This document shows positions 9,549 through 64,000 of a stretch of 64,000 nt of DNA, piece by piece. How positions within the stretch are numbered: the stretch's first letter is position 1; each line of letters begins with the position of its first letter. Both the position numbers and the translations under genes were made by a program. Source of the DNA: Diplonema japonicum (Eukaryota > Protista > Euglenozoa: Diplonemea); assembly GCA_964019335.1 (NCBI GenBank), contig OZ025697.1, positions 248,001 to 312,000 on the forward strand, read 5' to 3'. A model generated the notes under the pieces. That model did no database searches. It was not told the origin of the DNA and was given only the letters and a program-made list of their open reading frames with translations.

Positions 9549-10316
9549 TCATACCTCTTTACCATATTTTTGCCGGTACGCCTCCTTTGCAGATTCCTCG
9601 GTCAATTGACAAATCTTTTTTTTTTTTTTTTTTTTTTTTTTCCCACACACCTCCAATGGGGGAACAGGGTTGTTCAACCGAAGATGTTCAGCCCGCTCCC
9701 ACACGGCATAAGGCAGCACCCCCATGTCCAGCCCTCGGAACGGGGACTCTCCCAACAAAGAAGACTCGAATTCTATCAATTGATTCAAAAACCCTTTGTT
9801 GGGATGTGCGACAGGCCTCCTGCGCTTCACATGGACGTACGCCTCCTTCAGAGGGATGCGATGATCCGCCATAAGGAAGGCAATGGTGACGCAGGAAACA
9901 CGAGAAACTCCAGCCCGGCAGTGGACAAAAACCTTCCCGCCAGAGGACCGGGCAGCTCTGATGTGATCGAAGGCGGTAGAGAAATTTTGCGAAATGCTCG
10001 TGTGCGGGGTGTCGCTGACCTGGATCTGCTTGCAGTCGAAAGATCTCCGTACATTATCCGGAAGCTTCTCCCTCGTCAGGCTCAGCACATGGGTGATTTT
10101 GTATTTATCAAGAAGTTCCTTCTCTCTAGCAAACGCCAGGTTCCCGTAGAAGTAAAAATCATTCAGTTTGCACGCGCACGGTGATAAATCGATCAGCGCG
10201 TCTGTCTCGATAGGAATCCATATGTCCGGCCACAAAAACTTATGAGGAGGGTATTCCTTCCCCGCTACTCTTTCAACCAGTTTTTCACCCAGTAGTGACC
10301 GTTGCTGAACTTCCAT
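9549..10316 (-). CDS. Dual-specificity protein phosphatase
   Basis: VHCRAGVSR catalytic motif and RRRPVAHPNKGFLNQL. Predicted in-frame intron 9597-9650. Confidence 0.92.
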   Translation of the reverse strand: MEVQQRSLLGEKLVERVAGKEYPPHKFLWPDIWIPIETDALIDLSPCACKLNDFYFYGNLAFAREKELLDKYKITHVLSLTREKLPDNVRRSFDCKQIQVSDTPHTSISQNFSTAFDHIRAARSSGGKVFVHCRAGVSRVSCVTIAFLMADHRIPLKEAYVHVKRRRPVAHPNKGFLNQLIEFESSLLGESPFRGLDMGVLPYAVWERAEHLRLNNPVPPLEVCGKKKKKKKKKICQLTEESAKEAYRQKYGKEV

Positions 10317-10396
10317 GGGGGAAAAATCCGACCCCCCCCCCCCCCCTTCCTGGATAATGGATAAAGGCGGGGGGGGAAAAAAAAAGAAAAAAAACT

Positions 10397-11179
10397 TCAA
10401 GGAAACATTTCGGCTAGGAAATCGTCGAACTCCTCGTCCAAAACACGCTCCTTCTCGACGGGCTCCCTCCACACCTTGTTTGTGTTGTTGTGAGGGCTGG
10501 TTTTTTCCCCCTCGCTTTCTTCATGGTTCTCATCGGGCTCTTCTTTAATAACGGGGTCTTCTCTGCGTTCCGTCTTCGGGTTGATTTCTTCTTCAATCGG
10601 TTCTGTTTTAACGCCGATGCATTGCTTCTTAGCAGGGTGCAGATGCGGCTCGATTTTCTCGTCTTGTTTTACTTCAGGTTCTTCTTGAATCTTCCGTTTT
10701 TTCAACAGCCGTTTGTATTCGAGTTTGTACCTGCAGTTCTTACAGAGACGTAGCTTCACCAGTGCTTCTCTCTTGACACCGCATTCTTTGTATTTGAATG
10801 GGACTTCCAGCGTGCAGAGGCCTTGTTGTTCGTCGCAGGTGGGTAGGCCACCGCAGGAAAACTGGCCTTTACCAGAGACGACTTCGTTCTCAACCCGCCA
10901 CCTCATGCCGAGGAGGCCCTCCTTGTATCGATCCAGGTTAACCAGAGCATACTCTTTGAACAGCTTGTGACAGTACGCTTTAGCGAGCTTCCTCCCCCAC
11001 TGCCTCATCGCCTGTGATCCCTTCGCTTCCTTTTCATTGCCATCATCGATGAACCTGTACTCCTTCCTTAACACCTCGAAATCCGTCACTACCCTTTTGT
11101 CTTGAGACACCTTTCTGTAATCCCTCATCAATTTCACGTGTCTCTCCCACGGTGTGCTATTCTTATTTAGATAGCTCAT
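10397..11179 (-). CDS. FRA10AC1: FRA10AC1 homolog (spliceosome-associated)
   Basis: Motifs TDFEVLRKEYRFI, KLAKAYCHKLFKEYA, MRWRVENEVVSGKGQFSCG, ALVKLRLCKNC. Confidence 0.92.
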   Translation of the reverse strand: MSYLNKNSTPWERHVKLMRDYRKVSQDKRVVTDFEVLRKEYRFIDDGNEKEAKGSQAMRQWGRKLAKAYCHKLFKEYALVNLDRYKEGLLGMRWRVENEVVSGKGQFSCGGLPTCDEQQGLCTLEVPFKYKECGVKREALVKLRLCKNCRYKLEYKRLLKKRKIQEEPEVKQDEKIEPHLHPAKKQCIGVKTEPIEEEINPKTERREDPVIKEEPDENHEESEGEKTSPHNNTNKVWREPVEKERVLDEEFDDFLAEMFP

Positions 11180-11452
11180 TTTTTTTTTTTTACCCCTCTC
11201 TTTCCCCCAACCTTTTTTTTTTTGCTTTAATAGGGAACGAATTTGAAGGGGGGGGGGAGAAGTAACAATGGATATAACAGGACCGACGTGGGGGGGGGGG
11301 GGGGGGGGGGGGTTTAGAGGGAATAAAAAAAGGGGGGATCTAAAACAGAGGAAACGGGACGATTATCTAAATAGAAAAACAATGAAAGGGGGGGATCTAA
11401 AAAAAAAATCTAAAATAAGAAAAAAAAAATAATAAAGCCAATACAAAAGGAT

Positions 11453-12522
11453 CTACTGGGGACACAAACTCTGCAAGGCAGAGACAAGGTAACCCATTGA
11501 GGAACATTCATAATGAGAAAGCGAACAAGGAAGCAACTGCGTGCCGGGAGGAGACACCATCAGGGGAGTGTACAAGTTCTTTTCCGCAGCCACCGAGAGG
11601 TGGTAAGGCGAGGGCACAGTAGGCGAGTTGAACGTAACAGTTTGGAGGCCAGGGTTCGGGTCTGGCTGGCGGGCGGCGAAGCCGCCCGCCAGCCCATACC
11701 CAACCACTGTCACAGACGACCCATTGGAAAGCAACCCAGAGGTCAAAGAAGACAGTTCCGTGTAATGGCTTTTCGATGCGAAGGCTTCAGGGATGGTGTC
11801 AAGCTCTGAAACAAAGCCTTCTCCAAAGAGATTCAAGACCGGTACGACGTACTTAACAACAGAGAAGAAGCCGTAGATGCCCCACGCTTGGAGGTCCCTC
11901 ACGAGGAGCTGCCCTCTGACGTCGGATCTGATGACCAAGATATTGTGCTTATCTTGCGTGAAGTGCAGCCACGCAACCTCTTGTGTGCGATCTTCGTTGA
12001 AATCAGGTGAGAACAAGCGTTCTGCGGTCTGGTCCTGTGGGATCTGCAGCTTGACGTTGTGGAGATTGCTCGTTTGGAACTTTTCAACAAAGGAAGGATA
12101 GTCTTGCTCATGGCTCAGCTGTGCTAGAACTGCCAGGTCGGGCACTGTGAGGTTAGCATTTCGCACTTTCACGGCGCACAGGGGAGGGGGTCTGCTCGAG
12201 ACTAGCTCCCCTGCAGCACCGTCCTGTGTTGTGCTGGCTACCTCGAAAACAACAGCTGACCAAGCGAGCAACCCAAGCATGATCCAAAGAGTGACCCTGC
12301 AGTTCACCAGCAGAACAATGCTCCCTTTAGGGTGTGCTTCCTTGCTGAGCGGTGCAGTTCTGTTGGGCTTGGCGTCTGGTGGGGGTACAGGGGAATGCTT
12401 GCAAGGGAAAGCGAAGAAAGCACGTAGCACACCACCGCACGGCACCCACGAAGCCTTCTGGTACCGTGTAGTGGAGCGAGCAAGGGAGGCCGTCGTGTCG
12501 CTTCGGGGTTCAGATTTGACCT

Positions 12523-12562
<40 letters not shown>

Positions 12563-14491
12563 CTGAGGCAATTTCAAAGGTGTGGCTTCGTCAACATCAA
12601 TTCCTTCTTCGTCCTCATGGCAGCTAAGCTTGGACACCGCTCTGGTGATGTATTCTTCTCGATCCTATTTTTTTTTTTTTTTTTTTATTATTATTATTAT
12701 TTCCTACTAGCAAACCTCTGTTTCATCCACAACATGTTTCAGCATCATCCCTTGCGTGACAACAAACAGCCCTCCGAACAGCAGCAAGGTCTCCCCAGAT
12801 GTGACCGCACACCCTATCAGACCAACGATGAGAAACACCGCTAGCAAGCCCGCCGCAACATAAGGAGTGAAACGATGGTAGGAAGAGTGCCTCCATGTCT
12901 CTCGAAGCCCGAAGAGGGATAAAAGGATAATGAGGGTGATAAGAGTCCAAGAAAGCGACATGACAGGGGTCGATCGCGACGCCAGCCAGAACAAGATGAA
13001 AATGGTGCAGAAAGCGAATGATAATAACAGAACGGAGCGGCGGAGCGAAGGGGTGTCGAGCCCGGTTTCCTTGAGTTTTCTAGACGTCCATTTCCGTTTG
13101 GCCGATACGGTCCAACCGTAGGACCATACTGCCGCGAATAGTGTCAATGAGGCAACGATGTTCCACTGCACACCAACAGAGAGACAACGCAGGAAATCGG
13201 TTCCATTCACAACAGATTCCAAAACCATACGCAGGATCGGGGCGACGACAAAACCAAGAACGGCGCATGTGATGTACTGTTGCTTTCTAACATACCCGCC
13301 TACGGGAAGATTCAAAATGGTCCTCCGCGTGCAAGGCGGTAACGAAGACCTCACATGGGGAGGAACCACATTCTCCCCTCCGCTGTAGTCGATGTCACCG
13401 TAGTATATCTCCTCGGTTTGAAAAACCCATCCTGTCACGGAACGGAACCCCACGGTGAGAAAGGACGATACCGCGTGTAACGACATAACAAAACACACGA
13501 AAAGCCCGATAGACTGCCACCCACCACGATCCGAAGACGGCAAAAACATTTCCATCAACATCATCATCTGCAGGTGAACAAGGTACATGGCAACGAACGC
13601 CAACGAAGCTGCCAACCAGAACCCAACATACGCGACAAACCCTTTCGAAGCCTGTAAATTGTTCAAAAACTCCGTTACAGTACGATTCTCCTTGTAATGC
13701 TTCCTCGCGTGTTTGACATTGGACGCCAACCAAGCTTGCCGGGAAGAAATTGAGTCGTAAGGACCAACCTTGAATTTTTTAAGCAGATAATCGAGAGTAT
13801 CGGGGCTCTTACGGTACTCCTCACTAAGCACTTTTCGGAGCTCTGGTAGGGCACCCTGGTACCCGTTAAGTGTCTCGTCGATGTCAGAAACGGTTTTTGA
13901 GGGATCGAACCTGGCGTAGAAATTTGTTAGAAACTTTCTAGCCGAGTTGGATCCAGGAGCGGAAGGACGTGATGACAACGACCTAGAAGAGCTTCGCTCT
14001 GTGACGGCGACCCAGTCCTGTTCTTCATCCGCTACGTCACTAAGCGCTTCGAGTTTTTGAAGGGCTTCAGGAGAATCTTTGTACTGTTCCGCAAGGATTT
14101 CTAGAAGATCTCTCGTTCTTCCTGTGAATGCGTCGACCTCGTCGACCACCTGATGGACTTTTTCGGGGTCGTGTTCCGTGTAGAATTCTGTCAGGATCCG
14201 GTTGAGGACCGGTTTGTTCAGTTCCTTCGCCATGATGAGCTGTGCAGCGGGGTCGTCGAGGATTTCCGCCGCCTTCTCGCTCGCCTCCTGCTCCCCTAAG
14301 CCTTGTTCCATCAGCTGCATGATAAGGTAGTTTACCAGCTCTTCGACCTGCTCCTTTGGGAACCTCACGATGATATTCTCAACCGTTTCTTCCTCCTCCT
14401 CTTCATCAACCTCCCTCCTCCCCTCTGGAATCGTCGGTTCCGGCTCCAGAACTGGTGGTTTCATTGGCTTGCCGCTGCTTCCTGAGACTGG

Positions 14492-15050: not shown

Positions 15051-15771
15051 TTAGCAGCTTCGTAGCGTTTCGATTTTGTCGATCTTATTAATTTTTCTTT
15101 TTTTCCCCATTTTCCCCCTTTTAACATACCAACAAAGGCCACATGGTTTCTGATCCACTTGTGATTTCAATATCGTGAACAGGGAGAACCTTGCGTAACC
15201 GGGGCTCTAGCGTGGCCCAATTTTCTTGGTGTGTGTCGAGCCGAGAGGTGATGGTTTCCAAGTTGTCATCCACACGTGGATGGAGGGATGCCCCACATGT
15301 GCACATTGTCGGGGAAGGGGGCAGTATGGCTGGCATGTAGTATGAGCCTTCTTCAATGTGCTCGAGGTTCCAGTTGGCCCCGCACGATGTGCACTCACGA
15401 CGGCCCAACAGCTTTCTAATGATGAACTCCTTCAACAAAACAAAATGAAGGGCGTAGCTGGGATTAAGCTCTGGAATGTCCCTCGCTGCTGATTCGAAGA
15501 TTTCGACCTGCTCCAAGCTCCTGGGAAACCCGTCCAAGACGAAACCTCTCGAGAACTCCTCCTTCATCCCGAGGTACACTTCATTCACCGCTTCTACAGG
15601 GGCCAGCTTGCCCTCTGCCATCGCTTCTTTCACGTCCTCGGGCATCCTTTCCTTCAACACCTTACCCATGCTTACAAATGGAACATCGAACTTCTTACTA
15701 ATCATCTTCCCATAGAAGGACTTCCCGCTTCCAGGGGAACCCAGGAGGAGGATCTTTGGAGGGGTTCTCAT
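15051..15771 (-). CDS. Adenylate kinase (Cys-containing LID)
   Basis: GSPGSGKS P-loop, GFVLDGFPRS, RRECTSC..CTCG..RVDD. Intron 15084-15129 gives the C-terminus IDKIETLRSC*. Confidence 0.93.
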
Positions 15772-20778: not shown

Positions 20779-21203
20779 TCACAGTTCTTCAGCCTTGTCA
20801 CCGAGCTTTTCCTGCGAAGGGGGATGAAGAAGAAGGGGGAAGGAGAAAGAAAAAAAAAAAAAAAAAACATACCGTGAGGGAGGCCTTGGCATCCTCGCAA
20901 GGCTTGCCACCTTCCTTGACCTTGATAAGCTCAACATCGAAGATCAGAGGAGAGAACCCAGGGATCTTGGGAGGGCTGCCCCTCTCGCCGTAAGCCATTT
21001 CGTAGGGGATGTACAACTGATTATTATTATTATTTTTTTTCCTTCCTATTTCCCCCCTCTCCCCAAAATACCTGCCATTTATCACCCTCACACATGAGCT
21101 GAAGGGCCTCGGTCCATCCCTTGATAACCTGGTTGGGTGCAAATGCAGTAGGCTGACCCCTGTCGTAGCTCGAATCGAACTTGGTCCCGTCTCTGTTAGA
21201 ATT

Positions 21204-21805: not shown

Positions 21806-21890
21806 CTAGCAAACCCAAGCTGATCGTGGCTTTTTATTTGCGATTAACGAGTGCTTACTACGGGGATTGACTCTGGTATCCTGCCAATCT

Positions 21891-21925
<35 letters not shown>

Positions 21926-22773
21926 CATCGTATCATACCAGAGAAAAGCAATTTAACCTCTCTGTCCAAACCGGCGACGGCTTGCTGTCTCTTAGAGTGG
22001 ATCTCGGCACCCTTTCTGTTGAGGTTTGCAAGGGTGTTGATCTGCTGCTTGACTCCTTTAAGCTTCTGGAGACGGACGTCTTTAGCAACAAGCGCATTAC
22101 GGTACCTGGAATTCTCGGAGGTCAAAGAACACCGTTCCGCTTCAAGCCGGGACTTGTCCGACTGGAGGTGAGTAATCGTACGCTGCAAGCTCTGCATCCT
22201 TCTCTGAAGATGCGCAGAGTCCGCGACAGGAGGATTGGAACGACTCCTTCTAACAACTACATGCTTGCTCGGCTGAGGGGGTTGAGGTGCTGTGGTGTAA
22301 GGTACTCTGACACGTTGATTCACCCTTTCTACAGGTGTTGTCTGGTCCCAATGAGAAAGCGACTCATGCGCACTTGGAGGATTCGGACTGTCGTGTTTTG
22401 GTGGTGTGACAGGGCGGTACACTGACACCACCCGCTTATCAGGTAAGCTATTTGTCTGCATTGTGTTCACGTTCACTATGGCAGGAGCAGCTTTTTGCTG
22501 TCTGGGTCTGGATGGTGACACGATTAGCGGGACGGGTTGCCGTGTTTTAGACTCAGACCATGAGTCCTTCACTGCCTTTACCAGATCTTTCCATCCGGTC
22601 TCGTCTGGGCTGTCAAGTCTGCTTCTTCCAGGCGAAACTCTTTTCCCGTACCCTCTTCGTCCCCCGTACCTTTCTCCGTAATACAACAGGCCTTGCTCTG
22701 CGTCTTCAGCCACGCATCTAGAACACTCTGTGGTGAGAATCGAACTCTCCGACGCTGCTCTGCTGTTCTCCAT
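21806..22773 (-). CDS. Hypothetical coiled-coil protein
   Basis: 282-aa ORF plus predicted intron 21889-21938 and a short last exon. Confidence 0.7.
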
Positions 22774-25110: not shown

Positions 25111-26694
25111 TTACGATAGCTTTGCGTACTGAGGTTGATAGGCACCTGGCCCAGGAGACAGACCACCTCCGGATGTGGAACAAGAGCCCCACTTACCAGT
25201 GACATTGGTATGCAGGGTACCTCTAGAGGACTGGTTAATTTTACATTTATGTACTTTTTCAAAATCATACTGTACTGGTTTTGGGTATGCTTCTCCCCCG
25301 TCGCGTTGCTCTCACGTCACGCTCTACGGCATCAGCTGTGGTTTGAACTTTGGCAATTATACTACCCATTTCATACACAAGAAATAAAACGGTTGGTTGC
25401 TGTCTTTGAACCCTGTGGGGTTTAGGAACCTCTTCTCCCTCCCGAAGCTAGCACATCCCCTGAGATCTTCAGGAAGGAAGTAGCCCGAGGTCAAACTCGT
25501 GTCTGATTTATTCTTGTCCTTCATCCTGGCCTTTTCTGAAATTGATCTCCTCGGGGTTGACGTGATAGTGCTCAGGCTCGGTTCTCTGAGAGACCTGTTT
25601 ACGCTTCTACTCCTTGACTCCTGTTGTGATGGCCGTCTTTTCGGTGCACTTCTGCTCCTTCCTGACGTTGAAGAGATCCCGCTGTCATTGAGCGTGTTCA
25701 ACCGCTTCATGTCTTCATGAAGTGCCGTTCGTTCCCGCTCTACGTGTTGCCGTTCAATCTCCGTGCGTACGGCAGCCTCGTTCAGTTGTTGTTGTTCTTG
25801 CATAAGTATGCGGACGACGTCGAGGTTGAACGGCCCTTTCGCAAGTGCTTGTTGGTCAGCAATAGGCTGTTGGTGTTGGTGTTGTTTCTGGTCTTGCGGA
25901 CTCTGCTGTTGGTATTGCGGTTCGAGGTGGGGCTGTTGTTCTTTTCGTACGATCTGCTGTTGTTGCAGATCGATTAACTTCTGCTGTTGTTGCTGCTTGC
26001 TGAGAAGTTCTTTCAACTGATGTTGCTGCTGCAACTGAATCTGCTGCTGCTGATTGATAACATCTCTTAGCTGTTTTTCATACATTCCCATCGTTTCTGG
26101 TTGCTTGACAGGTTGCTGCTGCTGCTGCTGCTGCTGTTGTTGTTGTTGCTGTTGGTGGTGGTGATATTGCTGTTGTTGGTGTTGCTGTTGTTGTTTCATC
26201 TGGTCTTGCAGATGCTGCAGAACAACTTCCTGCTGCTGTCGTACTGTCTGGTTATGTGCCTGCGTAACACCCACTTGCATCAATATCTGAGCAGCCGTTG
26301 TTTGAATTTCCTTGGATAACCCGTTCCTGTTCAAGGAAGATGGTGTTTCGAACGTGTTTCTTTGCTGTTGGCATGGTGTTGCAGTATGTATCAAAGGTGA
26401 TCCACACCCTGAACAGAATCGATCCGCAGAAGATAGCACACGATGACAAGCATCGCACTGAAGTGTGTTAGAATCTTTAGACACCAGACTCTTGTTATCA
26501 GCCTCATGAAGGTACCTCCCGTATGCTTGAAGCACGGTATCGAACTGCCCCAAGAACGCTTTCATGTCAGCATCATCGCCACTCGAGTTCAAAGACGTGC
26601 TTCTATCGTCCCATGTGTCCCTCAAAGGGGTGCTCGCCGCCGCGTCCGACCTTGCAAGGGAAGGAAGAGGTGCAAATAAACTCTCAGTATCCAT
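25111..26694 (-). CDS. Gln-rich coiled-coil protein with zinc ribbon and C-terminal PGPGAY (SHIPPO/STPG) motif
   Basis: CDAC..FCSGCG and polyQ. Intron 25336-25376 restores the frame to ..SPGPGAYQPQYAKLS*. A second small intron near 25230-25275 is possible. Confidence 0.72.
26114..26196 (-). repeat. CAG/CAA coding microsatellite (polyQ)
   Basis: (ctg/ttg)n run on + strand. Confidence 0.85.
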
Positions 26695-26724
26695 TTCCCC
26701 CCCCGTCCCACTGTTTTCAGTAGG

Positions 26725-26731
26725 AAAAAAA
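26725..26731 (-). terminator. Pol III T7 terminator of the tRNA
   Basis: TTTTTTT one base after the discriminator. Confidence 0.75.
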
Positions 26732-34784: not shown

Positions 34785-36196
34785 CTCCATTATTCTTTAT
34801 TCATACCACCGGCGGAGAAGAACACCTACTCCCAACGCTCCTGATCAACTGCAGCATCGTGTTGAAGGCGCAGAGATTGAAGGACGTAAGTTTCTGTGTG
34901 GATTATTCCCCCTTGATTTTTTTTTTTTTTTTTTTTTCCCCAACATACCGTTGTTCCAGTTTCAGGCACCATCGTCACTGCGGTTGGGTAACACTGCGAC
35001 GCGAGGTATTTGCACAACTTCTCGAAGACATTGGGACAGCCCATGTTCAGGTCGTAGGTGCGCACAAGGAAGACAGGGAAGGAATCGATGCTGCAGAACT
35101 CCATCAAGGTCTCCAAGATGACCTCCTTGATCTCCATGGACTGTATGTCGGTCGGCGTGTCGTCTTTCAGATACGTTCCGAGGAGGAAGGCCAAGAGCTG
35201 AGGCCCGATGTGGTCACCACAGTACATTGCAGCAAGCTGAACAGTGTGGAGCATCTGCGCGATGACGACTACATTGTCCATAGTACTGCTAACAGAGAGA
35301 AGGGCACGGCACAACTGGTTCTGGATCACCGTGAGCAAAGGCTTGCATCTCTCTTCAGTAAGACAGCTTTTGAGCGTGGCAAGACTGTGGTAGACGAGCG
35401 TGAGCCCAGCGTACTTTGTGGCAGCAAGCTGTGTTTTAAAAGGAAGAGCAGACCCATCGCTCGGATCACTGTGCGGTGCATACGCCGGACCCAGCAACCT
35501 TGTGAGCGTCTCTGCCTCCGTCGATATCATACTGACAATGAACTCGAACACCCGTTCAAAACAGTGTGGAGCGGTGCCCCGTACCACGCATTCGTACAAG
35601 TGCGTGATCATGTCGTTGGTGGTGGCGTCGGCGGTGTGGCGAAGAAGTTCTGAGGGTGCACCATGCATGGCGATTGCAAAGCAGCCTTGCAGTATGTTGA
35701 GTATTATGTCTTCAGGTAAGCACACGCCCAGAGGATGGCACACGCATGCCTTCAACACTTGAAGGATTCTCCCCAAGACCGCTTCATGGGATTGCGCGTC
35801 AGCCACTTCGCTTTTCACTTCCAAAGCAGCAGTTGCGATACCTATGATAGTCGGTACGTCCACAAATGAGAGCTTCATTTCAAGAAATGTTGCAAGCCCG
35901 CTCAACGCGACACCTGTGATAGGTCCTGTTGTCTCCTCGGACTTGGAGACCTCGAGGAACGGTTGCAGGATCCTCGAATGGACAAGTGGTTGGTTTGTGT
36001 TCAGAAGGTCCTTACGCAAGGTTTTGATGCTCGTCATCAGCTTGTGGCTGCCCTCTTTCCCGAAGTCGCCAAACCTCTGCTTCGAGCAAAACAGCGAATT
36101 CGTTCTCAGGGCCAGGATCAAGTTGTGCGACTGTGTCACGATAATCGCCTTGTCCCTGTGCCATTCTTCCTGCGCTGACCTCTGCTGATCAGCCAT
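31392..36196 (-). CDS. GBF1: Large Sec7 Arf-GEF, GBF1/GEA/GNOM type, ~1530 aa, 5 exons
   Basis: DCB (PFLEVSKSEETTGPITGVAL), HUS-box-like YDLNMGCPNVFE, Sec7 FLLPGEAQRIDRLME and IMLNTDLHS. Introns 34894-34948, 34748-34806, 32867-32910, 32706-32759 join three ORFs in frame. Confidence 0.92.
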
Positions 36197-41002: not shown

Positions 41003-41065
41003 CTGCGTTTTAGAAAGAAAGTTACCGGGAAAGGGTGGGAAAGAAAAAAAAGAGAAAAAAAAAAG
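41003..41065 (-). promoter_or_regulatory. Putative SL trans-splice acceptor (polypyrimidine tract + CTAAAACGCAG)
   Basis: Pyrimidine run starting just after the upstream stop and ending in CAG ~48 nt before ATG 40955. Confidence 0.5.
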
Positions 41066-41070
41066 TCCCT

Positions 41071-41615
41071 TCACCTGACGGTATGCGGAAGCTTCCGTCC
41101 CTTGTTCCGAAACATTCTGTCCCTTCCACAAAAGCTGTGGTCGTCGAGGCGGCGAAAATAGCTGCCTGGGCCCTTTTTTTTTTGTTTTGTTTTGTTTGTT
41201 TGAAGTGCAATACCAAGCCATTCCAAGAGGTGAACAAGTTCACCATCCCGCAGTGAGTTTCAATTTTCCTGCTTTCCTTCCCGATCTTCCCACCACTTTT
41301 CTTGGGAGGTGCCGGCACGTTGTAGTGCCCCGGCCCAGGGGTGTGTAGGTTGCTCTCATAAACATTATTGATGCCGCCAGAGGTTTGTACCAAAGACTGC
41401 ACGGATGGACTGATCGCGGTCAGCGAGGCGTTGGCCACCCCTGGAGGGGGGATGTAACCACCCAAGGTTTTGGCAAACTTCGGTTTTGCAGTCGCCTTTG
41501 TTGCTAGTACAGGTAACCCAATGCCCGACTCTTCCTGCGGTGACACAACTGTCCTTGCAGGCTGCAGAGCACTACCGGTACTGTACAGTCGGAGCTCACG
41601 TCCGTGAGGTGACAT
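41071..41615 (-). CDS. Small SHIPPO/STPG-repeat protein (likely flagellar), 2 exons
   Basis: TPGPGHY in exon 1. Intron 41173-41213 (AAG acceptor) yields a second motif L|GPGSY. Confidence 0.75.
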
Positions 41616-41929: not shown

Positions 41930-41969
<40 letters not shown>

Positions 41970-42681
41970 CCCACATACATAGTGCAGCCTCAGCGTACAG
42001 TACCCATTGCCAGGGGACACACTGAGCACGTAAGTTCGTTCCTCCCACGGGTCGGGTGAGAGGACAAGAGATCGACCGCAGATCTGGTTTGCATCCGCCC
42101 CTCCAAGCTGCTTCCTTGCATTGTTGTTCACCAAGCCCTCCCTTCGGTGAGCGAAATACCCCCCAATGGTGTCACCAATGAACTCCCCTTCGGAAGGCGC
42201 TGCTACCTTTTCCGTCTCCTTAAAACCCAATATTTTCTTCCACCAAGGGAATTCCCTCTGCTCAGCCGACCCCATTTTGATGTTGTCAAAACCTGAAGGC
42301 GGCCGGAACATGCACGATGCGAGATCGGCATCGGAGTATACGTCTAGTGGTTCATCCAGACCCCGTTCCCTTTTCTCGAGGGTTCGTACCCACGAGCCCA
42401 TCACTGACCGCGCGAACTCCTTTTTTTTTTTTTTTTTTTCTTTTGTCGGCATACTGTCAGGACTTCATCGTCGTCATATTCCTTCCCAGGAGGAATCGCT
42501 GCTTGGTACTGAAAGCTTGTCAGAAAACCGGTCCCCTCTTTTTTTAAGAGGTGGAAGTACCAGTCGGTCAACCTGTGGTCCTGTGAAAGGTGCACCGCGT
42601 CATGTCTTGAAAATATCCCTCCTTCCATCATCGAGCTGTGGAGGGGGGGGGGGGGGGGAGAAGGGGGTGAAAATTAAGAGG

Positions 42682-42712
<31 letters not shown>

Positions 42713-42857
42713 CGTACCTTCTACAGTACCCCGCATACAACACCAGGTATAACGCAGAACCTTGCAGCCCCCTCGCTGCAAGCCACCATCCCCACCCACC
42801 GCTTGACTTTCCCAACCTTATCCTCGCCAATGGGTGCAACGGCACTGATCCTGACAT
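41791..42857 (-). CDS. Hypothetical 300-aa protein, 4 exons
   Basis: Introns 42636-42717, 42420-42454, 41932-41978 join four ORF pieces with consistent phases. Confidence 0.78.
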
Positions 42858-46913: not shown

Positions 46914-47482
46914 TCACGCACAGACAGAAGGCGAAAGCGTTTCTGCAGCGGCATGTTGCTGTGGTTATTATTTTTTTTTTTTTTTTTGTTTTGTTTCAAT
47001 ACCTTCCTCATCTTCCTGTCTTTGTTCATGGCCTTCATGAAGGAAAGGGAGGTCCTCGGGGGAGGGGGGAGGGGCTCTGTTCCAGGCTCGGAACTTGCTT
47101 CCTCCGACTCACTGGAGTACTTGGTAAGGGGTCTGCAGGCGTCGGAAAGCCAGGACGAAGAGCAAGAGGAGAGGACCTCAGACGGGACATCAACAGGGAA
47201 GTGGACCTCAGAGGGAGAGGTCCTGAGGTTCAGCATCTGGTGGATGGGCATCCCGCCCTTGTCGTCCACACGGCCGGGCAGCATCAGCCCTTGGGAGGCG
47301 GGGAGGAATGGCTTTGCACTGGGGTTGCATCCAGGGGTGCTCAAGCATGGCGACCCTTGCACCTGCTTCGGTGTGCTGTGCGTGCTGTCTGACCCGCTCA
47401 GCCCGTCAAGGCTCTGCAGCACAGGCGACGGCACATACGGGGCAGCGTCAGGGGAGAAGTTGTACCTGCGTGCGTTCACCAT
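46914..47482 (-). CDS. PAM2-motif (PABP-interacting) low-complexity protein, copy 1
   Basis: NFSPDAAPYVP and CNPSAKPFLP resemble PAM2 (LNPxAxxFxP). Intron 46959-47002 and last exon QHAAAETLSPSVCA*. Confidence 0.75.
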
Positions 47483-50890: not shown

Positions 50891-53800
50891 TCATTGTTGT
50901 CCTTTCTCACTTTCCGCAAGCGCAGCCACACTGAGGATCCTGCTCTCCTCGTCGGCCCCAGGAGTGTACTCCACAGAGGGAAGGTTCTCTGCCACGTCAT
51001 AGCCGTGCGGCTGGGCGAGGAAAGAGGTTGCGAGACTGTTTTTTTTTTTCTTTTTTTTTCTCTTTTTTTTTTCCCCCTCCACGAAATACCTTTTAACGTC
51101 AGTGATTTCAGACTTCGCTGTGTCCTTTAGTTTCTCGGGAGGGTTTTCGCAGTTCGGGTCCCACTCCAGTATTTTAATAACAGCATCCTTGTAAGGGTCT
51201 ACAAAGCGCACAAAATAAGAATCGATCGCAGTTTGTATTGCGGAGATCACACCGCCTTGCGAGAGCTTCGGAAGCTCACTCCAGTCCCCGGTGCTGAAAC
51301 TCCGGCCCACCTTGGTCTCGTGCGCCTTTTGGAAACGCTGCAGGATGGACGAAAGGAGGCTTTTCTTCGTGGTGTTCAGAGTCGACCTTTTTATTTTATT
51401 TTTATTTTTTTTAATTTTTCTCTCTTGCATACGTTGCGTAGATTTTAATCTCCGCCGCTTCCATTTTCGCTATTTTGGGAACGGCGTATTTCCTGATGGA
51501 CTTCTCTATGAGCTGTCCCAGGCGGAGAATGTAGCTGTTCTTGATCGCTTCTTCGGTTTGTTCTTTCGTCTGCCGTGTGTTGCTCCTGTGGAGGGAAGAT
51601 GATAGGGAGAAGAGTTCATACTTGTAGAACGAAGTCGCGAACTCCCGTCCCCTGTTCTCGACCTTGGAGGGGTTCTGGTAGTACCACGTGGGCAGCGCGT
51701 CATCGACTGCGTTGCTCGCGTTGTACATCCTGGGGTCGGGTTTCTTCGCCGTCATCGATGCGCTTTGTCGCGACTGTGTATTGAGATTAGGGGGAAAGAG
51801 GGGAACCATACCGCAACCTCCTTAGCCAACTCTCTCTGCCTCAATTGTTTGGCTTCGTGCCACCTAAGCTCCGTTTGCCGCTCAAGCTTCACAAGAGACT
51901 GCTGATTGGCCGCGGAAGCTTTTGCCGCCCTTTTTTTGTTTTTTTTCTATTTTTTTTTTTTTTTTTTTGTCGGCATACTGGACGTTCATGTACGACTGGC
52001 CAATCTTGCTGGTGCTCTCGTCGTTCGGTTTGACGGTCGCGTTGAACAGGTTGCGCTGCATGGTGGGCATCACGTCTGTTTTCGCGTACTTCGCAGCGAG
52101 GTTTCGTGAGGAGCCCCTGCTGTGCTGGAGGCCAGGGTCATCGGATTTAACCTGTCTCGCCACTGGCGCACCAGCACCCAGTTTGGCGGCTGCGCCGTTC
52201 ATTGACAACTCGATGAACCTGTCTGCAGGCGTTGGGATGGGCTTGCGGATCTTCCCGGACTTCAGGTTTTTCTTATAAAACTGAACAACCTGCCGCGAGG
52301 CGCGGAGTGCTGACCCTGCAGCCCCGATGATAAGACCGTAGTTTGTAGAGTCGGTGGCGTCACCAGCGAAGAACAAGGGACCCTCACCATTGTTCCCAAG
52401 AGGTTTTGCAAGGCTCTCGAAGTGACGCGGGTGTGTGGTGGGTGCGAGGAAAGGACTGCTCCCCCGAGTGAGGGCGTCCTTGCCCCACCGTGACACACGG
52501 ACATCGATGGGCTCAGGGACCTCGACAGCCGTGAAAATACGTCGGAAGTGCGCCATCGCCTCATCAACAACTGCTTGGGTGCCGCCCTCTTCAGCAAGAG
52601 TGGCAGCGTCGCCGGAGAGAGAGATGGTGGCATGGGGATGGGGTAGTCCGTGCAACGACCCTCGTGCACCCACCCCACGCAGTTGTGTGTTGGCATCTTT
52701 GTAAAGCACGAAGTCCATGTTCTGGATCCTTGCCGGTTCAGCGCCTTCTTCGGGAACAAATTTCTGCTCGATCCAGAACGGCTTGTCGAAAGCGAGCACG
52801 AGGGTGTTCTTCACACCACAGCCAATGTGCTTAAGGGCTTCCAGTTTCTCCTCCCCGAGGCCGGGTGTGAACGTGATGGCGCCATCGTTTCCTTCCTTCC
52901 CCGGCTTCGCCTTCAGTACGCCTAGAGGAACCGTCACCACGCAGTAGTCGCATGGGTCTTGTTGCTTCTTTTCCGTGGTAATGGTGACGTTGTCGTTCGT
53001 GTAGGCAACGTCCGTGACCGGTTCACCGTACTTGATGGTGAGGCCTTTGGCGAGCTTGTCGCATATCTTGTCCCACGACACGTCCAGCACGTAGGCGTTC
53101 CCTACCCTGAACTGCTGCCCGTTCTTCCCGAGGCTGTCGATCTTGGCGTGCGCCTGCTCCTCCCATCCGTTCACGATTGACATGCACTTGTTCCTCAGCG
53201 CCTCATCCTCTAGTTTTTGGATGAAGTCCACGACGGGGCCGAGGGTACCGCCTTCCGGGATCTCGTTTTCGATGAATGGGTACAGCACGGCTTCAGCGTC
53301 ACCGATCTCTTCTTCGGGGTTCAAAATGTGTGTCCCGTTGTGGCCGAACACGAAGAAACTGGCAAGTTTCTTTTCGGGGTCGTCCCAGTCGCTCACGCCC
53401 GCTTGTCGGAGGAGATTGTGGACGACAGCACGGGGCGGCTCGACGGGGTCGCGCGCAAGGCCCGCGGCGGCTCGTTCTTGCGAGTCGATCGATGCAATGC
53501 TCGCGGACCGTTCACCGATAGTATCAAGCGCTTCATTAATACCAAGGAGCTCCACACCGGACCGCTGCGAACGGGTGTCGTCGTTGTCAGCTTCGTCTTC
53601 CCTCTCAGTCATCATCTCAGGGAGGTCGTACCTGCTAGGAGGCCCCACGGGCACAGTGAAGTTCTCCGCTTCATCATCCGACTCCGACTCGTCTTGCTTC
53701 TTACTACTCATGGTGATGGATTTGCACCGTCCACCAGGTGCATGGCCACCTTCGAACACTTGAACGTCAAACCCTGCACGGACTAGTTGCTGAGCTGTGA

Positions 53801-56959: not shown

Positions 56960-57539
56960 TTTTTTTTTTATTTATTAGAACACCCCTCCTTTTTTTTTTT
57001 ATTTTAAGATTAATGAAAGAAGGGGTAAAAAAAAAAAAAAAAAAAAAAAAAAGAAATATGGAATAACGCAAGGTTGAGAAGGAGATATACAGGCCGAAGA
57101 GAGGGGAGGGGGAAACACTGGAAAGGGGGTAAAAAAAAAAATTCAGGGGGTAAAAAAAAAAAAAAAAATGGGGGTAAATGGGGAGGGGAGTAATAAGACC
57201 CTAATAAAACACTTCTCCGAAGCCCTCTCCTCCTTTTTTTTTTTTCTTCCTTGTTGGTAACATTTTCTTCAAAAAAGAGAAAGAAAAAAAAACACATTAG
57301 AAAAAAAAAGGGGGGTTCTTATCAATGATACAAACGGGAAGGCTACCTCTTTTTTTTTTTTTTTTTTCTTACCCCACATGAAGAGAAAAAAAAATTGACA
57401 CTCCAAGAAGGAAAAAAAAAAAAAAAAAAAAATAGAAAACGGGTGGAGGGGGAAAATCAAATATGAACAGAAAAAAAATAAAAAAAAAGCGATCTATGCC
57501 GCGCATCGTGGTTGTGTTGCTTTAAAAAAAAAAAAAAAG

Positions 57540-57570
<31 letters not shown>

Positions 57571-57583
57571 CCTCACACTATAT

Positions 57584-57624
57584 TTAGAACGCCTGACCTT
57601 CCTTTTCTCTCGCAGCAGCCGTCT

Positions 57625-57690
<66 letters not shown>

Positions 57691-58973
57691 CACACCTGTA
57701 TGTCAGCCGGTTTCAAACCAAGTTCTTCCCAATCCCACGCATAGGGGTTCAGCTCTTTAGGCCTTGCAGTTTGATCCATTTCCATCTCGCAAAGCATGGA
57801 TCTGTTGAACATGGGGCGCGGTGTGAGGAACTCGTTGACAAACGCACACGCATCACCAAGCCACATCTGTGCACGTGAGGTACATTGTGATATGTCATAT
57901 CATACCGGGCAAGGGAAGGGCTTCGGACCCTTCATGTGAGCCGCCCTTTCAGCCGCGAATTGCATATGCGTCATGATCTTGGGCCCACCCAAATCGATGA
58001 TCTGTATATATATATATATATTTTTTTTTTTTTAAAGCTTTTTTACACCCAAGAACATACCTTCTTCACAATTTCAGGGGTTTGAAGAACTTTGTGCGTC
58101 GCGTCAGCAAGGTCATTGACCCAAGTGGGTTGGAGTTTCGTGTCTTTGTGGAAGAATTTAAAAATGCTTATAAAAATATATACCGGGAAACACAGTTGGG
58201 TACCACTGTTTGCCGAAATTGCTGTAGCGGTAGCCAGAGCCGTAGAGATGGCCGGGTTTAAGGACCACCGCGAAGAACGACTCGGCGAGTGCCATTTCCT
58301 CGGCCTTTGCTCGGAAGTCGGACCGGTCGGAGTCGTTCCCCCAGATGGCGTCGAGACCAGAAATATAGATATACCTCTTGATGCCCCGAAGACGGGCTTG
58401 GTACGCGATATTGCTGCTTCCCTTCACATGAACGTCAACATGAAGGTTGTAGAAGTCATCATTTCGCATGTCAATCGCGTTGACGATACTGTCAACTCCT
58501 TCGAGGGCTCTGTTTATACTGGGTTTGTCAAGGACGTTGGTGGCTTCGAGGAAGCATTTTTCGGGGTTGATGTTGATGATCTTCTGGAGGTCCTCCGGAA
58601 TCTGGTCGGGGTACCTCGTGCACAGTCGTACTTCGTCGTATTCCGGTGATTCTACTAATTTCTTTGCGATCCTGCTGCCTTGAAAGCTTGTGCACCCAAA
58701 CACTGCCACCCGCTTAGCCGGGCTTGGTAAAATTTTTTTTGGTTCGTGCGCCATTCGAACTGCCTTGGTTGTGGTGGTGTACACACTTGCGTATGCGTCA
58801 GTGTTCGCGTAGTTCGCTTGCGACATTTTAGGTAACGGACGGTACCCATGCTTCCCGAACATGGGTTCCTCCGAGGCAATATTCACCCCACTCCCCGCCC
58901 TTTTCGTCAACGGACCATCTTGTTCATTATGCGGCATCTGCAGCATCCTCCTTTGCACGGCTCTTTTTAGCAT
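57584..58973 (-). CDS. NDUFA9-like NAD(P)-binding SDR (complex I 39-kDa subunit family), 392 aa, 5 exons
   Basis: Mitochondrial-type presequence MLKRAVQRR, VAVFGCTSFQG, KLQPTWVNDLA, DLGGP. Introns 58144-58183, 58002-58060, 57867-57905, 57623-57695. Confidence 0.8.
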
Positions 58974-59312
58974 TTTTTTTTTTTTTTTGCCCCTCAACTG
59001 GTTTTTTTTTTTTTTTGCCATGAGTTTTTTTTTTGGGGGGGGATATATGTATACATTTTGAACTTTTTTTTCTCCTTTTTCTTTTTTTTTTTTCTTTTCC
59101 CCGTGGAGGATAAAAATATAGGAAGGGGGGGACGGGGGCAGGAAAGAGAAAAGTGGGTAAAGGTGGAAAGAGAAGGGGACAGTGGATGGAAGAAAAAAAA
59201 ATTGAACCTTGTACGGGATACGAAGGGATGCCTTCTTTTTTTTTTTTTTTTTTTTTTTGTATGTGCGTGTGAAGAAAAGGGAGAAAGGGTGGGGCTGTGG
59301 TGGGAGTAAAAA

Positions 59313-60001: not shown

Positions 60002-60054
<53 letters not shown>

Positions 60055-60939
60055 CTCTCTCTCCCCTGATGAATACCTTTTTTGTCAGCCTCGCGATATC
60101 AGGGTGCAGGAAGGTAAAAATCTGTCTACCGAGCACTTCTGAAAGCATCTCGGAGTCATTGCTCTGCACTGCTGAGACAAGGTCCCGGCACGTGTGGAAC
60201 TCCTCACCCGTCACTTCAAACAAATCAGAGGTATCTTTAAAATCCCGCTCTGCCATCACAGCGTCCTGCCTGGCAATGTGCAGCACCACCACCTCTACAC
60301 AACCCTTATCGATGTTATGCTGTTGCTTCAGCTCTTTGAAGTGTTTCATATTAGTTTTGATGGCCTTCACCGCCTCAAGGTAGTTCCCTGCTTTGACGTG
60401 GATTGCAACAAGTAGCCTGCCTGGTTCGGGCATGAGGTGGTACTGCTCTTCTTCGGCGAGGGTTGCCATAGCTTCTTCAACAAGTTTCGCTGCTTCGATC
60501 GGCTGGGTTTCTCGCAAAATACGAGAAGCCCTCACTAGAGCCTCAGAATATTTGTCAGGTTTCCCGTCAGCAAGATAGCATTTTCCCGCCATTTGCGTAT
60601 ACCTCGCCATGTCGTTCATGTTTTTGTTTTCCTGTGTTTTGTTGTTTGTGGGTAAAAAATCTTGTGTACCTTATGTATTGTTGCGATGGCATCGTAGGCT
60701 CTTCCTTTGCAAAAGTCGTTTGCCGCCTTTCCGTGGTTTTCTGCGGCGTTCTCCCAGGCGTCGAAGGCCTCGGTCCACTTTTTTAGGTGTTGATATATTT
60801 TCGCCGCCGCCTCGTACTCCAGGGCCGCCACATCGTAGTCCGACTGGCTCACCGACCATTTCGTGAAGCTTTTCTTCAGTTTTTTTTGTGCGGATTTGAT
60901 GTGCTTCGCCGCCTCCTCCAACCGTATCGCCGCTGACAT
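59887..60939 (-). CDS. NAPG: Gamma-SNAP (soluble NSF attachment protein gamma), 313 aa, 3 exons
   Basis: KKLKKSFTKW..DYDVAALEYEAAA and acidic tail DDLNDWC*. Introns 60632-60669 and 60004-60076. Confidence 0.88.
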
Positions 60940-62127: not shown

Positions 62128-62135
62128 TTGAAACA

Positions 62136-62181
62136 CTGTTGAAGTGGTGGTGCGGTGTGTGACAAAAAAAGAGGGGATAAA
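62136..62181 (-). promoter_or_regulatory. Putative SL trans-splice acceptor for the BILBO1-like gene
   Basis: TTTATCCCCTCTTTTTTTGTC..CTTCAACAG 8 nt before the ATG, in an 80-bp intergenic gap. Confidence 0.5.
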
Positions 62182-62207
62182 TTCTAACTGAGAAACCCCC
62201 CTAAAAT

Positions 62208-64000
62208 CTAGATGTAATATTTTCTACCTGTTGCTGTTCGGAAATGTGTGCTTCCCTGTTTTTTTTTTTTTTTTTTTTTTTCTTTTCAATCCATTACCTG
62301 CATTGTTCTTGCCTGTGCTTTTCGGACAATGCGAAGCCTCTCCCGAACCGCCTTCATGAAGGCGAAGAAGTCCCATTTTCGTTCCCCCCATTTTCCCGAG
62401 ACTGCCTCTTCTTGCATACAAGCTATCGAATCAAGAGCCGCACTGTATTTGTTTTTTTTTTGCCCCCCCTCTTTTCTTTTTGCCGCCGTTATTGATGCAT
62501 ACCCATGCCACACCACGAAGTTCGGTGCGTCCAAAGGGGCCAGCGCCCTGTATTCATCGAGGGTAAGGATTTTACCCTTATCCCTTCGTTTTGTCATATG
62601 TTTGTACATTGCTTGTGGGTCCTTTAGATGGGCGAACAGCAGAGCAGGATGCGTGGCGTACGGGCATCCCCCGAGCACAGTGGGTTCTGAACATGTTCCT
62701 TCACTTTCAAAGTTACTAGCGTTCTTGGTGAACACGTTTTGCGTGAGGATGCTCGCTCGTTTCAAGAGATCCCATTTCAACCCCACTGCCTCCTGTTCAT
62801 TGGTAGCCCTCGACACAGGGGGCGACAGGGATCTTGCATGTACTTCCGATCCTCCAAACCGCGAATTCGTTTGCATGTAACTACTCTCCGTTACTTTCGA
62901 CCGCCCAGACACAGATGACCTCCTGCTGGGTACAAGCCCCTCGGACGCTGCCAGGTTCGCCTTGATATGCCCTCGCAGACTCGTTTTCATGGACAAAGGT
63001 CTCTGCGGGAAGGTTGTCATGAACGATGAACTAACCGGCAGGCTCCCTATTTCGTCCTCCGGGAAGGCAGGGACAGGTGTCGACTTCGAACGCTTCTTGA
63101 AGTGCGGGATGTCTGGCTTCCTCTCCGTTCTTTCCATCACCGGCTTCCTGATGTGCTGCACCTTTTGCTTCTCGGGAACTGGTTTGCTCGGTTTCGGAGG
63201 AGCGCTTCGTGTCCGCACACGTTGGCTAACTTGTTGTGGCTCCCTGTGTACTTGTTTCGGTTCCCGTTCAACTTGTTTCTCTCGTGACACATTTACCTTT
63301 CGCTCCTCTGACTTTCCCCCGTCAAGTCGTGTTGAGGAGTTCCATCCCTGTGAGGCAGGCGACGTGCTGGAGGATCTTGCAGGGGACACACTGTGTGCGC
63401 TCAGTTTGCTCACGTCACCACTTCTCAGCTGCGGTGAGGTGCTGCGGCGTGCAATCCTTGTCGAACCCGTTTCTTCACCACCTGTCTCACTTTTCCTCCC
63501 ACCCACCCTGCGTGGAAGCGTTGTGCCACGGTCCCGCGCCCTCTCGGGCCACACATTCAACGGGCTGTATGACGGCTTCCTCCTCTCCTTCTCCCTCTCC
63601 TTTTCCTTCTCCTTCTCTCTTGCTTTCTCCCTTTCTCTTGCCTTCTCCTTCTCTCTTGCCTTCTCCCTCTCTCTCGCCTTCTCCTTCTCCCTCTCCTTCT
63701 CTCTCTCTCTTTCTTTTTCTTTTTCCTTCGCTTTCTTCTGACTAATCGAATTACCGCGTGCACCATCCCTGGTACTGTATATCGGCGACACGCTAGGCTC
63801 CCTTACAAAAGCGCGGCTGCCTTTCAGAGTTGCTTGCGACGATGTGCTGTGTTTCCTCTCGGCAGGGTTCGCTCTGTTGGGGGAGATTGACGTGCCGGTA
63901 CTTCGAGTGAGCCGCTCCGGCGATGGCTTGGACTCTTTCGTGGGCGAGGTGAAGTGCCGTCTTGGGGGCGAACTGCGGGCAGGCTCCGCACGCGCTGGGA
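62208..64000 (-). CDS. Hypothetical Arg/Ser/Lys/Glu-rich protein, 5' end outside window
   Basis: The frame stays open upstream of 63791 toward the window edge. EKAR/EKER repeat at ~63580-63737. Introns 62443-62502 and 62256-62297. Confidence 0.8.

What the first reader, a model, noticed from the sequence alone, without database searches (positions are those of the whole stretch)
9597..62502. Poly(A)-filled mini-introns with no polypyrimidine tract: a possible A-tract vs Y-tract code separating cis- from trans-splicing
Seen: about 30 GT-AG introns of 35-84 nt restore conserved proteins in phase (FKBP, GBF1, gamma-SNAP, NDUFA9-like, ADK). Most are A-rich, and several are just donor + poly(A) + acceptor: GTAATTT(A)nCAG (12521-12562), GTATGTGGGGC(A)nG (41932-41978), GTGTGGATTT(A)nCCAG (57623-57695), and 60004-60076. 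Only a few are pyrimidine-rich (20812, 42636, 51774). Intergenic AG sites before ATGs do carry pyrimidine tracts (41003-41065, 62136-62181, 26712-26731). Known: U2AF normally needs a Y-tract, and euglenozoan SL trans-splicing uses Y-tract/AG. Inference: cis-introns avoid pyrimidines so they are not trans-spliced, which implies a different mode of 3' site and branch-point recognition.
Basis: partly seen in the sequence, partly recalled or inferred. Interest (0 to 1): 0.8.

Follow-up and report, generated by a model that had tools for sequence, protein, structure and literature searches.

The report
Diplonema poly(A)-filled mini-introns
These are real, very short introns of the marine protist Diplonema japonicum, most filled with runs of A where a pyrimidine tract normally sits (already reported for this species), and their lack of U-runs likely helps keep them from being mistaken for spliced-leader trans-splicing sites, although some spliced introns are pyrimidine-rich and the trans-splicing sites are not yet mapped.

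Summary
The window is Diplonema japonicum. I curated 33 minus-strand GT-AG introns of 35-84 nt. Nine are backed by spliced contigs or a transcript-derived protein, including poly(A) intron 57623-57695, and eight by homologues. A-runs of 8 or more occur in 22 of 33 and T-runs in 2 of 33, while intergenic DNA has 94 A-runs and 99 T-runs. A poly(A) tract in place of the pyrimidine tract is already published for this species (PMC12621601). A weaker form survives. U-runs are missing from introns and from the 40 nt before start codons, while pyrimidine tracts sit 40-160 nt upstream. In 31 of 33 introns the acceptor is the first AG at least 35 nt from the donor. Best reading: donor-anchored, ruler-like intron definition with slippage-grown A filler and selection against U-tracts (inferred). 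The feature is known; the mechanism is open and cheap to test.

The parts
57623..57695 (-). 73-nt intron, donor GTGTG, A59 run, CCAG; last intron of the NDUFA9-like gene
   Evidence: four-intron model identical to D. japonicum transcript protein P0131; no direct joint displayed
57867..57905 (-). 39-nt intron, mixed composition, no A-run
   Evidence: CT..AC joint in X5, X9, X11 and not in X1; P0131
58002..58060 (-). 59-nt intron, A13 run plus TA repeat
   Evidence: record-length arithmetic for X9 and X11 matches depth only if spliced; P0131
58144..58183 (-). 40-nt pyrimidine-rich intron (last-20 Y 0.70)
   Evidence: CT..AC joint in 3 of 4 runs; retained form is P0121; genome-derived ORFs P0125 and P0127 of other diplonemids break at the same codon
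51930..51978 (-). 49-nt poly(A) intron in the SWIRM/amine-oxidase (LSD1-like) gene
   Evidence: skipped in contig pieces of X5, X9, X11 (table 8)
51774..51811 (-). 38-nt pyrimidine-rich intron (17-nt Y-run)
   Evidence: CT..AC joint in 3 of 4 runs
51586..51621 (-).
   Evidence: CT..AC joint in 3 of 4 runs
51387..51432 (-). 46-nt A-rich intron
   Evidence: skipped in X9 record 20 (table 8)
51036..51089 (-). 54-nt A/G-rich intron
   Evidence: same contig depth on both sides in X5, X9, X11 but two contigs in X1 (table 3); inferred bridge
60004..60076 (-). 73-nt poly(A) intron, gamma-SNAP
   Evidence: best of 4 acceptor combinations against P0145, 85% identical homologue
60632..60669 (-). 38-nt A/C-rich intron, gamma-SNAP
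   Evidence: fits P0145 without gaps
34894..34948 (-). 55-nt intron with A21, GBF1-like Sec7 gene
   Evidence: fits P0132
34748..34806 (-). 59-nt intron with A31, GBF1-like
   Evidence: fits P0132
32867..32910 (-). 44-nt A/C-rich intron, GBF1-like
   Evidence: this acceptor closes a 6-aa gap against P0132
32706..32759 (-). 54-nt A-rich intron, GBF1-like
   Evidence: fits P0132
21193..21276 (-). 84-nt intron with A43, FKBP
   Evidence: flanking exons match FKBP_N 67-97 and FKBP_C 21-62
21017..21071 (-). 55-nt G/A-rich intron, FKBP
   Evidence: flanking exons match FKBP_C 21-62 and 64-94
20812..20872 (-). 61-nt predicted last FKBP intron with T17 and a 41-nt Y-run (counter-example if cis)
   Evidence: ORF only: removal gives an ER-retention-like C-terminus on a signal-peptide protein; not transcript-tested
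12521..12562 (-). 42-nt predicted intron: 7-nt donor, A32, CAG
   Evidence: sequence; restores a 982-aa ORF; not transcript-tested
12665..12715 (-). 51-nt predicted A-rich intron
   Evidence: ORF only
41932..41978 (-). 47-nt predicted intron, donor GTATG, GGGG, A33, G
   Evidence: sequence; ORF only
42420..42454 (-). 35-nt predicted poly(A) intron (shortest)
   Evidence: ORF only
42636..42717 (-). 82-nt T24/C-rich segment: predicted cis intron or an SL acceptor (ATG 4 nt after the AG)
   Evidence: ORF only; ambiguous
41173..41213 (-). 41-nt predicted A/C-rich intron, SHIPPO-repeat-like gene; alternative acceptor at 41166
   Evidence: ORF only
46959..47002 (-). 44-nt predicted A-rich intron
   Evidence: ORF only
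62443..62502 (-). 60-nt predicted A/G-rich intron
   Evidence: ORF only
62256..62297 (-). 42-nt predicted poly(A) intron
   Evidence: ORF only
25336..25376 (-). 41-nt predicted mixed intron
   Evidence: ORF only; leads to a SHIPPO-like last exon
25231..25270 (-). 40-nt predicted mixed intron
   Evidence: ORF only
21889..21938 (-). 50-nt predicted intron with A34
   Evidence: ORF only
15084..15129 (-). 46-nt predicted A/G-rich intron, adenylate kinase
   Evidence: ORF only; ADK domain upstream
9615..9650 (-). 36-nt predicted intron with A24, dual-specificity phosphatase
   Evidence: ORF only
9503..9554 (-). 52-nt predicted A-rich intron
   Evidence: ORF only
62136..62181 (-). candidate SL acceptor (Y-tract, C/A spacer, ACAG) 8 nt before the ATG of an EF-hand/BILBO1-like gene
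   Evidence: sequence; weak BILBO1_N match near the N-terminus (E 0.048) suggests a separate gene; SL addition untested
41003..41065 (-). Y-tract AG: candidate SL acceptor for the 980-aa gene, or 3' end of a 72-nt cis intron from 41074
   Evidence: both readings open
26712..26731 (-). T7 plus AG before ATG 26694; the T-run likely doubles as the Pol III terminator of the tRNA
   Evidence: tRNA-Thr(TGT) 26732-26804 ends at it

Best explanation
These are short GT-AG cis-introns of Diplonema japonicum, mostly A-filled and spliced without a pyrimidine tract; they are likely defined across the intron from a strong donor, and U-runs are likely selected out of them because a U-tract would attract spliced-leader trans-splicing and coupled polyadenylation inside a gene. 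Shown: splicing of nine introns; donor GTATG in 18 of 33; A at -4 in 27 of 33; a floor of 35 nt; use of the first AG at least 35 nt from the donor in 31 of 33; G and AG excluded from the 3' part; A-runs common and T-runs rare. Inferred: U1 binds the donor and the spliceosome assembles over a fixed short span, branching at one of many unpaired A residues without a consensus, then taking the first AG. Also inferred: replication slippage, which fills all non-coding DNA here with homopolymers of both kinds, lengthens the introns, and selection removes T-runs and new AGs, so A-runs remain. The same filter would act on 5' leaders. On this reading A is tolerated filler rather than a positive 'cis' signal, and a nearby donor can override a pyrimidine tract.
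For: Species and splicing. Composition: A-run in 22 of 33 and T-run in 2 of 33; in the 17 externally supported introns 11 and 0; intergenic DNA has 94 A-runs and 99 T-runs, Fisher p 3.6e-6. First-AG rule: 31 of 33, and 15 of 17 externally supported; 2 introns skip an AG against 14.2 in shuffles, 0 of 5000 as low. G content: 83 of 495 near the donor against 17 of 495 near the acceptor. Seven AGs at 32-34 nt or with short spans are passed over, for example the TAG at 32 nt in 51930-51978. YTRAY occurs in 2 of 33 at -50..-5. Polarity of intergenic DNA: Y about 0.66 at -100..-61 and 0.20 at -20..-1 before ATG. [quoted passage not shown]
Against: No SL junction, lariat or U2AF binding was observed, so the selective cause is untested. 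The C/U-mixed tracts in spliced introns 51586-51621 and 51774-51811 should be trans-competent under trypanosome rules, where C/U mixtures work as well as U (PMC9639853 Introduction). Euglena and most other diplonemids keep C-rich tracts in cis introns alongside SL trans-splicing (PMC11170887 passages; PMC12621601), so avoidance is not required in the group. Sixteen of 33 introns rest on ORF restoration only and were partly found by eye, which favours conspicuous A-runs and, in a few cases, the first AG. All statistics come from one 64-kb window.
Confidence: 0.55

Rival explanations
1. Strict two-letter code: an A-tract is positively read by a dedicated factor (a poly(A)-binding protein or an altered U2AF) as 'cis', and a Y-tract as 'trans'.
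For: 24 of 33 introns have A of 0.5 or more in the last 20 nt; several are only donor, poly(A) and AG; PMC12621601 calls the A in the PPT conserved across about 10,000 introns.
Against: 3 of 9 transcript-backed introns are Y-rich and a fourth is mixed. A-runs are as common in the 40 nt before ATG (15 of 22). 6 of 20 candidate trans AGs follow A-rich sequence. U2AF1/2 are present (PMC12621601). As a weak hint only, contigs of two runs stop at the same place upstream of the DHAD gene, where X1 goes on; this fits SL addition at an A-preceded AG.
Confidence: 0.15
2. A nearby donor alone decides cis versus trans. The A-bias has another cause, such as keeping tiny introns and 5' leaders unstructured, or a lineage-specific slippage bias, and is unrelated to trans-splicing.
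For: Y-rich cis introns are spliced. 21 of 33 introns fold weaker than -1 kcal/mol. In Schistosoma, cis and SL splicing compete for the same acceptors, and the classical view is that a missing donor makes an SL site (PMC5832876 passages). Other diplonemids manage with C-rich tracts (PMC12621601).
Against: Same-strand intergenic DNA has equal numbers of A- and T-runs (94 and 99), so a simple strand bias fails. Poly(U) would be as unstructured as poly(A), yet T-runs are depleted. The only two T-run cases lie at gene ends (20812, 42636).
Confidence: 0.25
3. The A-runs are assembly or cDNA artefacts, or frameshift errors rather than introns.
For: The laying tool skips the repeats, so run lengths are unverified.
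Against: Run X1 matches the unique flanks with 0 differences and its contigs extend into the runs. Removal at GT-AG gives a protein identical to a transcript product. The same feature is published from independent data (PMC12621601).
Confidence: 0.02

Closest known systems
Diplonema japonicum canonical introns with poly(A) in the PPT (Thakur et al. 2025, PMC12621601)
   Same: Same species by 100% identical transcript proteins; GT-AG ends, GTATG donor, CAG acceptor, short length (median 41 there, 47 here), A dominant before the AG, weak YTRAY
   Different: The paper reports a pooled logo and notes that U2AF1/2 are present. In the parts read it does not compare with SL acceptors ('spliced leader' 0 hits), and it does not describe the first-AG/35-nt rule, the Y-rich minority or the shared A-bias of 5' leaders. 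Its supplements could not be read.
Trypanosomatid SL trans-splicing acceptor (PPT, no branch consensus, first AG, coupled polyadenylation; PMC9639853, PMC6597758, PMC13601561)
   Same: Pyrimidine tracts upstream of start codons in unidirectional gene arrays; no branch consensus; first-AG use
   Different: Trypanosomatids have only 2-3 cis introns, and these keep pyrimidine tracts (PMC11613528 passages); here cis introns are abundant and mostly lack a tract. SL sites are not mapped here.
Euglena gracilis conventional introns and outrons (PMC11170887)
   Same: GT-AG introns with CAG coexisting with SL trans-splicing
   Different: There, cis introns and outrons share one C-rich tract and introns average about 500 nt; here most cis introns are about 50 nt and A-filled.
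Euglenozoan non-canonical introns (hemistasiids, euglenids)
   Same: Short introns in the same phylum
   Different: Those lack GT-AG and pair their ends; these are GT-AG and largely unstructured.

Membership tests
U2-type spliceosomal cis-intron | GT-AG ends | tested here: met
   4 of 4 genuine short joints read CT..AC; the other 29 were chosen as GT-AG
U2-type spliceosomal cis-intron | Removed from mature transcripts, present in DNA | tested here: met
   9 introns; run kinds are unrecorded or guessed
U2-type spliceosomal cis-intron | Donor consensus able to pair with U1 | tested here: inconclusive
   GTATG in 18 and GTATT in 6 of 33; pairing with this species' U1 not computed; U1 genes reported in PMC12621601
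U2-type spliceosomal cis-intron | Polypyrimidine tract before the AG (typical, not universal) | tested here: not met
   last-20 Y of 0.6 or more in only 5 of 33
U2-type spliceosomal cis-intron | Branch-point consensus YTRAY | tested here: not met
   2 of 33 at -50..-5; 13.9% genome-wide in PMC12621601
U2-type spliceosomal cis-intron | Lariat intermediate and spliceosome dependence | not testable with these tools
   no raw reads; no genome held
D. japonicum poly(A)-PPT introns (PMC12621601) | Species, short GT-AG, GTATG donor, CAG, A most abundant upstream of AG | tested here: met
Euglenozoan non-canonical introns | Non-GT-AG ends with paired termini | tested here: not met
   (median MFE 0.0)
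SL trans-splice acceptor (for the intergenic AGs) | SL exon joined at the AG | tested here: inconclusive
   no SL-like loose end among those displayed; 88 rows were cut, and contigs cannot show starts
SL trans-splice acceptor (for the intergenic AGs) | Pyrimidine tract upstream of an AG before the start codon | tested here: met
   Y-window within 200 nt of ATG in 20 of 22 genes; strand-polar

The most novel reading that the evidence does not exclude
D. japonicum has split 3' splice-site recognition within one spliceosome. U2AF65/PPT-dependent recognition serves SL trans-splicing and polyadenylation. Thousands of cis introns are removed by a PPT-free, branch-consensus-free route that needs only a donor, a 35-nt span and an AG, as in 12521-12562, which has just 10 bases outside its A-run. 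Swapping A for U would then turn an intron into an mRNA boundary.
Probability: 0.3. Interest if true: 0.75.

Novelty: already known. Interest (0 to 1): 0.42.

Why it matters
The sequence feature itself is in print for this species. What remains open is how an organism with polycistronic transcripts, near-universal SL addition and about 10,000 cis introns avoids cutting genes at intron acceptors. These near-pure poly(A) introns are natural minimal substrates, with no pyrimidine tract and no branch consensus, and existing RNA-seq could test the cis/trans idea directly. A positive result would show U2AF-tract recognition being reserved for trans-splicing. It might also bear on why the sister kinetoplastids lost nearly all cis introns.

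Tried and rejected
No whole genome is held, so nothing is genome-wide. No listed run is on record as RNA; three behaved as spliced when laid. Only 8,900 of 64,000 bases and 4 of 15 listed runs were laid; all are contigs, and the joined-form check in other runs was not given. Three long joints in X1 lie in repeats and were dropped. Record length for X5 cannot separate spliced from retained at 57623-57695, so that intron rests on P0131. SL junctions were sought in loose ends and none was displayed. Contig-end arithmetic gave weak hints only: X5 and X9 both carry 63 letters beyond 56947 against 97 in X1, and X9 ends on the G of an AG upstream of two other genes, while X5 does not. The cis-versus-'putative trans' comparison is circular, because the AGs were chosen after Y-windows, so its p-values are not used. 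The ab initio HMM over-joined genes and invented plus-strand models, and was used only as a candidate list. Dropped from it: 42516-42560 (in frame, unsupported), 54330-54413, 62136-62227, 41003-41074 and all gene-joining introns. Three intergenic regions holding other elements were left out of the 22. Exact look-up of 10 unspliced ORFs found 4 in the collection from EukProt, so they are intronless, and 6 absent, which is uninformative. A metagenome scan for related loci found none among 327 pattern matches. Earlier scan notes gave nothing relevant. Literature searches for a cis/trans A-versus-Y comparison in diplonemids found none. The supplements of PMC12621601 and the main PDF supplement of PMC10161547 (introns, UTRs) could not be read and may bear on this.

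Full report
Identity. The window encodes a unidirectional minus-strand gene array. Its dihydroxy-acid dehydratase is 84% identical to a Diplonema ambulator protein and 71% to D. papillatum. The first exon of the NDUFA9-like gene is 100% identical to EukProt proteins of Diplonema japonicum. No whole genome was available.

Are the introns real? The four named poly(A) introns are at the stated places. Laying four runs on 50001-58900 gave short CT..AC joints at 51586-51621, 51774-51811, 57867-57905 and 58144-58183 in X5, X9 and X11. X1 contigs read through the same places with no differences. Contig pieces also skip 51930-51978 (three runs) and 51387-51432 (X9), and single contigs appear to bridge 51036-51089. 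Record lengths of X9 and X11 match their depth only if 58002-58060 is removed. Removing all four introns of the NDUFA9-like gene, including the 73-nt one with A59, yields a 392-aa protein identical to transcript product P0131. Four GBF1 introns fit P0132, two gamma-SNAP introns fit P0145, and two FKBP introns join consecutive profile segments. Sixteen more rest on ORF restoration only. Run kinds are unrecorded or guessed, and homopolymer lengths are unverified.

Composition. In 33 introns (35-84 nt, median 47) the core is 63% A. A-runs of 8 or more occur in 22 and T-runs in 2; in the 17 externally supported introns the counts are 11 and 0. Twenty-two intergenic regions on the same strand hold 94 A-runs and 99 T-runs, so the genome makes both kinds and introns keep one (Fisher p 3.6e-6). 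Length-matched intergenic draws expect 7.2 A-run, 8.7 T-run and 15.3 Y-window hits per 33, against 22, 2 and 4 observed. The set is nonetheless mixed. Introns without any run are the shorter ones (p 0.006), as expected if runs are later growth. The position of 58144-58183 appears to be shared with two other diplonemid genomes, whose ORFs break at the same codon (P0125, P0127).

Signals. Donors are GTATG in 18 and GTATT in 6; acceptors are ACAG in 18 and AAAG in 8; A is at -4 in 27; YTRAY occurs in 2 of 33. The acceptor is the first AG at least 35 nt from the donor in 31 of 33, and in 15 of 17 externally supported introns. Shuffling the cores predicts 14.2 introns with a skipped AG against 2 seen (0 of 5000 shuffles as low), and G is concentrated near the donor (83 against 17 of 495). 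Nearer AGs are passed over, for example the TAG at 32 nt in a transcript-backed intron. Most introns are unstructured. This fits definition across the intron with a minimum span and first-AG choice, which is an inference.

The trans side. No SL junction could be seen. Without choosing acceptors, intergenic DNA is polar: Y is about 0.66 at 61-100 nt before ATG and 0.20 in the last 20 nt. Y-windows occur in 14 of 22 genes at -100..-41 and in 1 of 22 in the last 40 nt, where purine windows occur in 18 of 22. The last 40 nt carry A-runs in 15 of 22 and T-runs in none. A-richness therefore marks 5' leaders as well as introns. The first AG after the Y-window is itself preceded by A-rich sequence in 6 of 20 genes.

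Literature. PMC12621601 (parts 1-4 of 8 of the text read, plus term look-ups; supplements unavailable) analysed 10,131 D. japonicum introns. [quoted passage not shown] It has no SL comparison. PMC10161547 (passages, section 9, seven supplement files searched; main PDF supplement unreadable) supports polycistronic transcription and near-universal SL addition in D. papillatum. PMC9639853 (abstract, Introduction), PMC6597758 and PMC13601561 (passages) give the trypanosome rules: U-tract of 9 nt or more, no branch consensus, first AG, coupled polyadenylation, and a U2 without the branch-recognition motif. PMC11170887 (passages) shows Euglena cis introns and outrons sharing one C-rich tract. PMC11613528 (passages) shows kinetoplastid cis introns keeping pyrimidine tracts. 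PMC5832876 (passages) shows cis and SL splicing competing at the same acceptors in Schistosoma. PMC13598402 and PMC10158995 (passages) added nothing on this point. Seven searches found no diplonemid cis/trans acceptor comparison; the library lacks most subscription papers.

Verdict. The introns are real and unusual, but the A-tract feature is already known for this species. The strict code fails on spliced Y-rich introns and A-rich leaders. A weaker version is the best reading (0.55): PPT-free, donor-anchored splicing with A filler and selection against U-tracts inside mRNA units. Donor-only discrimination (0.25) and the strict code (0.15) are the rivals. The bold case, a split of 3' site recognition between cis and trans, has probability about 0.3 and would rate 0.75. 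Overall interest is 0.42.

Noticed in passing
window 58998-59054 (-): Possible 57-nt 5'-UTR intron (GTATA donor, A-runs, CCAG) that would remove an in-frame upstream ATG of the NDUFA9-like gene; alternatively its AG is an A-tract SL acceptor.
   Followed up: partly
window 40955-41074 (-): Very tight junction between a SHIPPO-repeat-like gene and a 980-aa intronless gene; the Y-tract AG at 41003 may serve as both a cis and an SL acceptor.
   Followed up: partly
window 26732-26804 (-): A tRNA-Thr(TGT) gene sits co-oriented within a 196-nt gap between two protein genes.
   Followed up: partly
window 17732-19159 (+): Plus-strand ORF with a DDE_1 endonuclease match (E 3e-5), a probable DNA transposon inserted against the gene array.
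   Followed up: no
window 36300-37250: A GC-poor segment with a 134-aa ORF (36829-37230, -) and flanks unlike the surrounding homopolymer DNA; possibly a transposon remnant.
   Followed up: no
window 47000-47482 and 49098-49580 (-): Near-identical duplicated ORF of about 160 aa with different 3' ends; one copy has a predicted A-rich intron.
   Followed up: no
window, 40 nt before start codons: Poly(A) leaders directly before ATG in 15 of 22 genes, some about 30 A long; contigs of spliced runs extend into several of them.
   Followed up: partly
window 58144-58183 (-): Both the spliced (P0131) and the intron-retained (P0121) forms are in the species' transcript set, so this Y-rich intron is at least partly retained.
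   Followed up: partly
introns, first 30 nt: G-runs of 3 or more follow the donor in 9 of 33 introns; a possible splicing enhancer, by recalled analogy with G-triplets.
   Followed up: no
run X11 on 50001-58900: Differs from the window at about 2-4% of sites yet splices the same four joints: a different strain or close relative.
   Followed up: no
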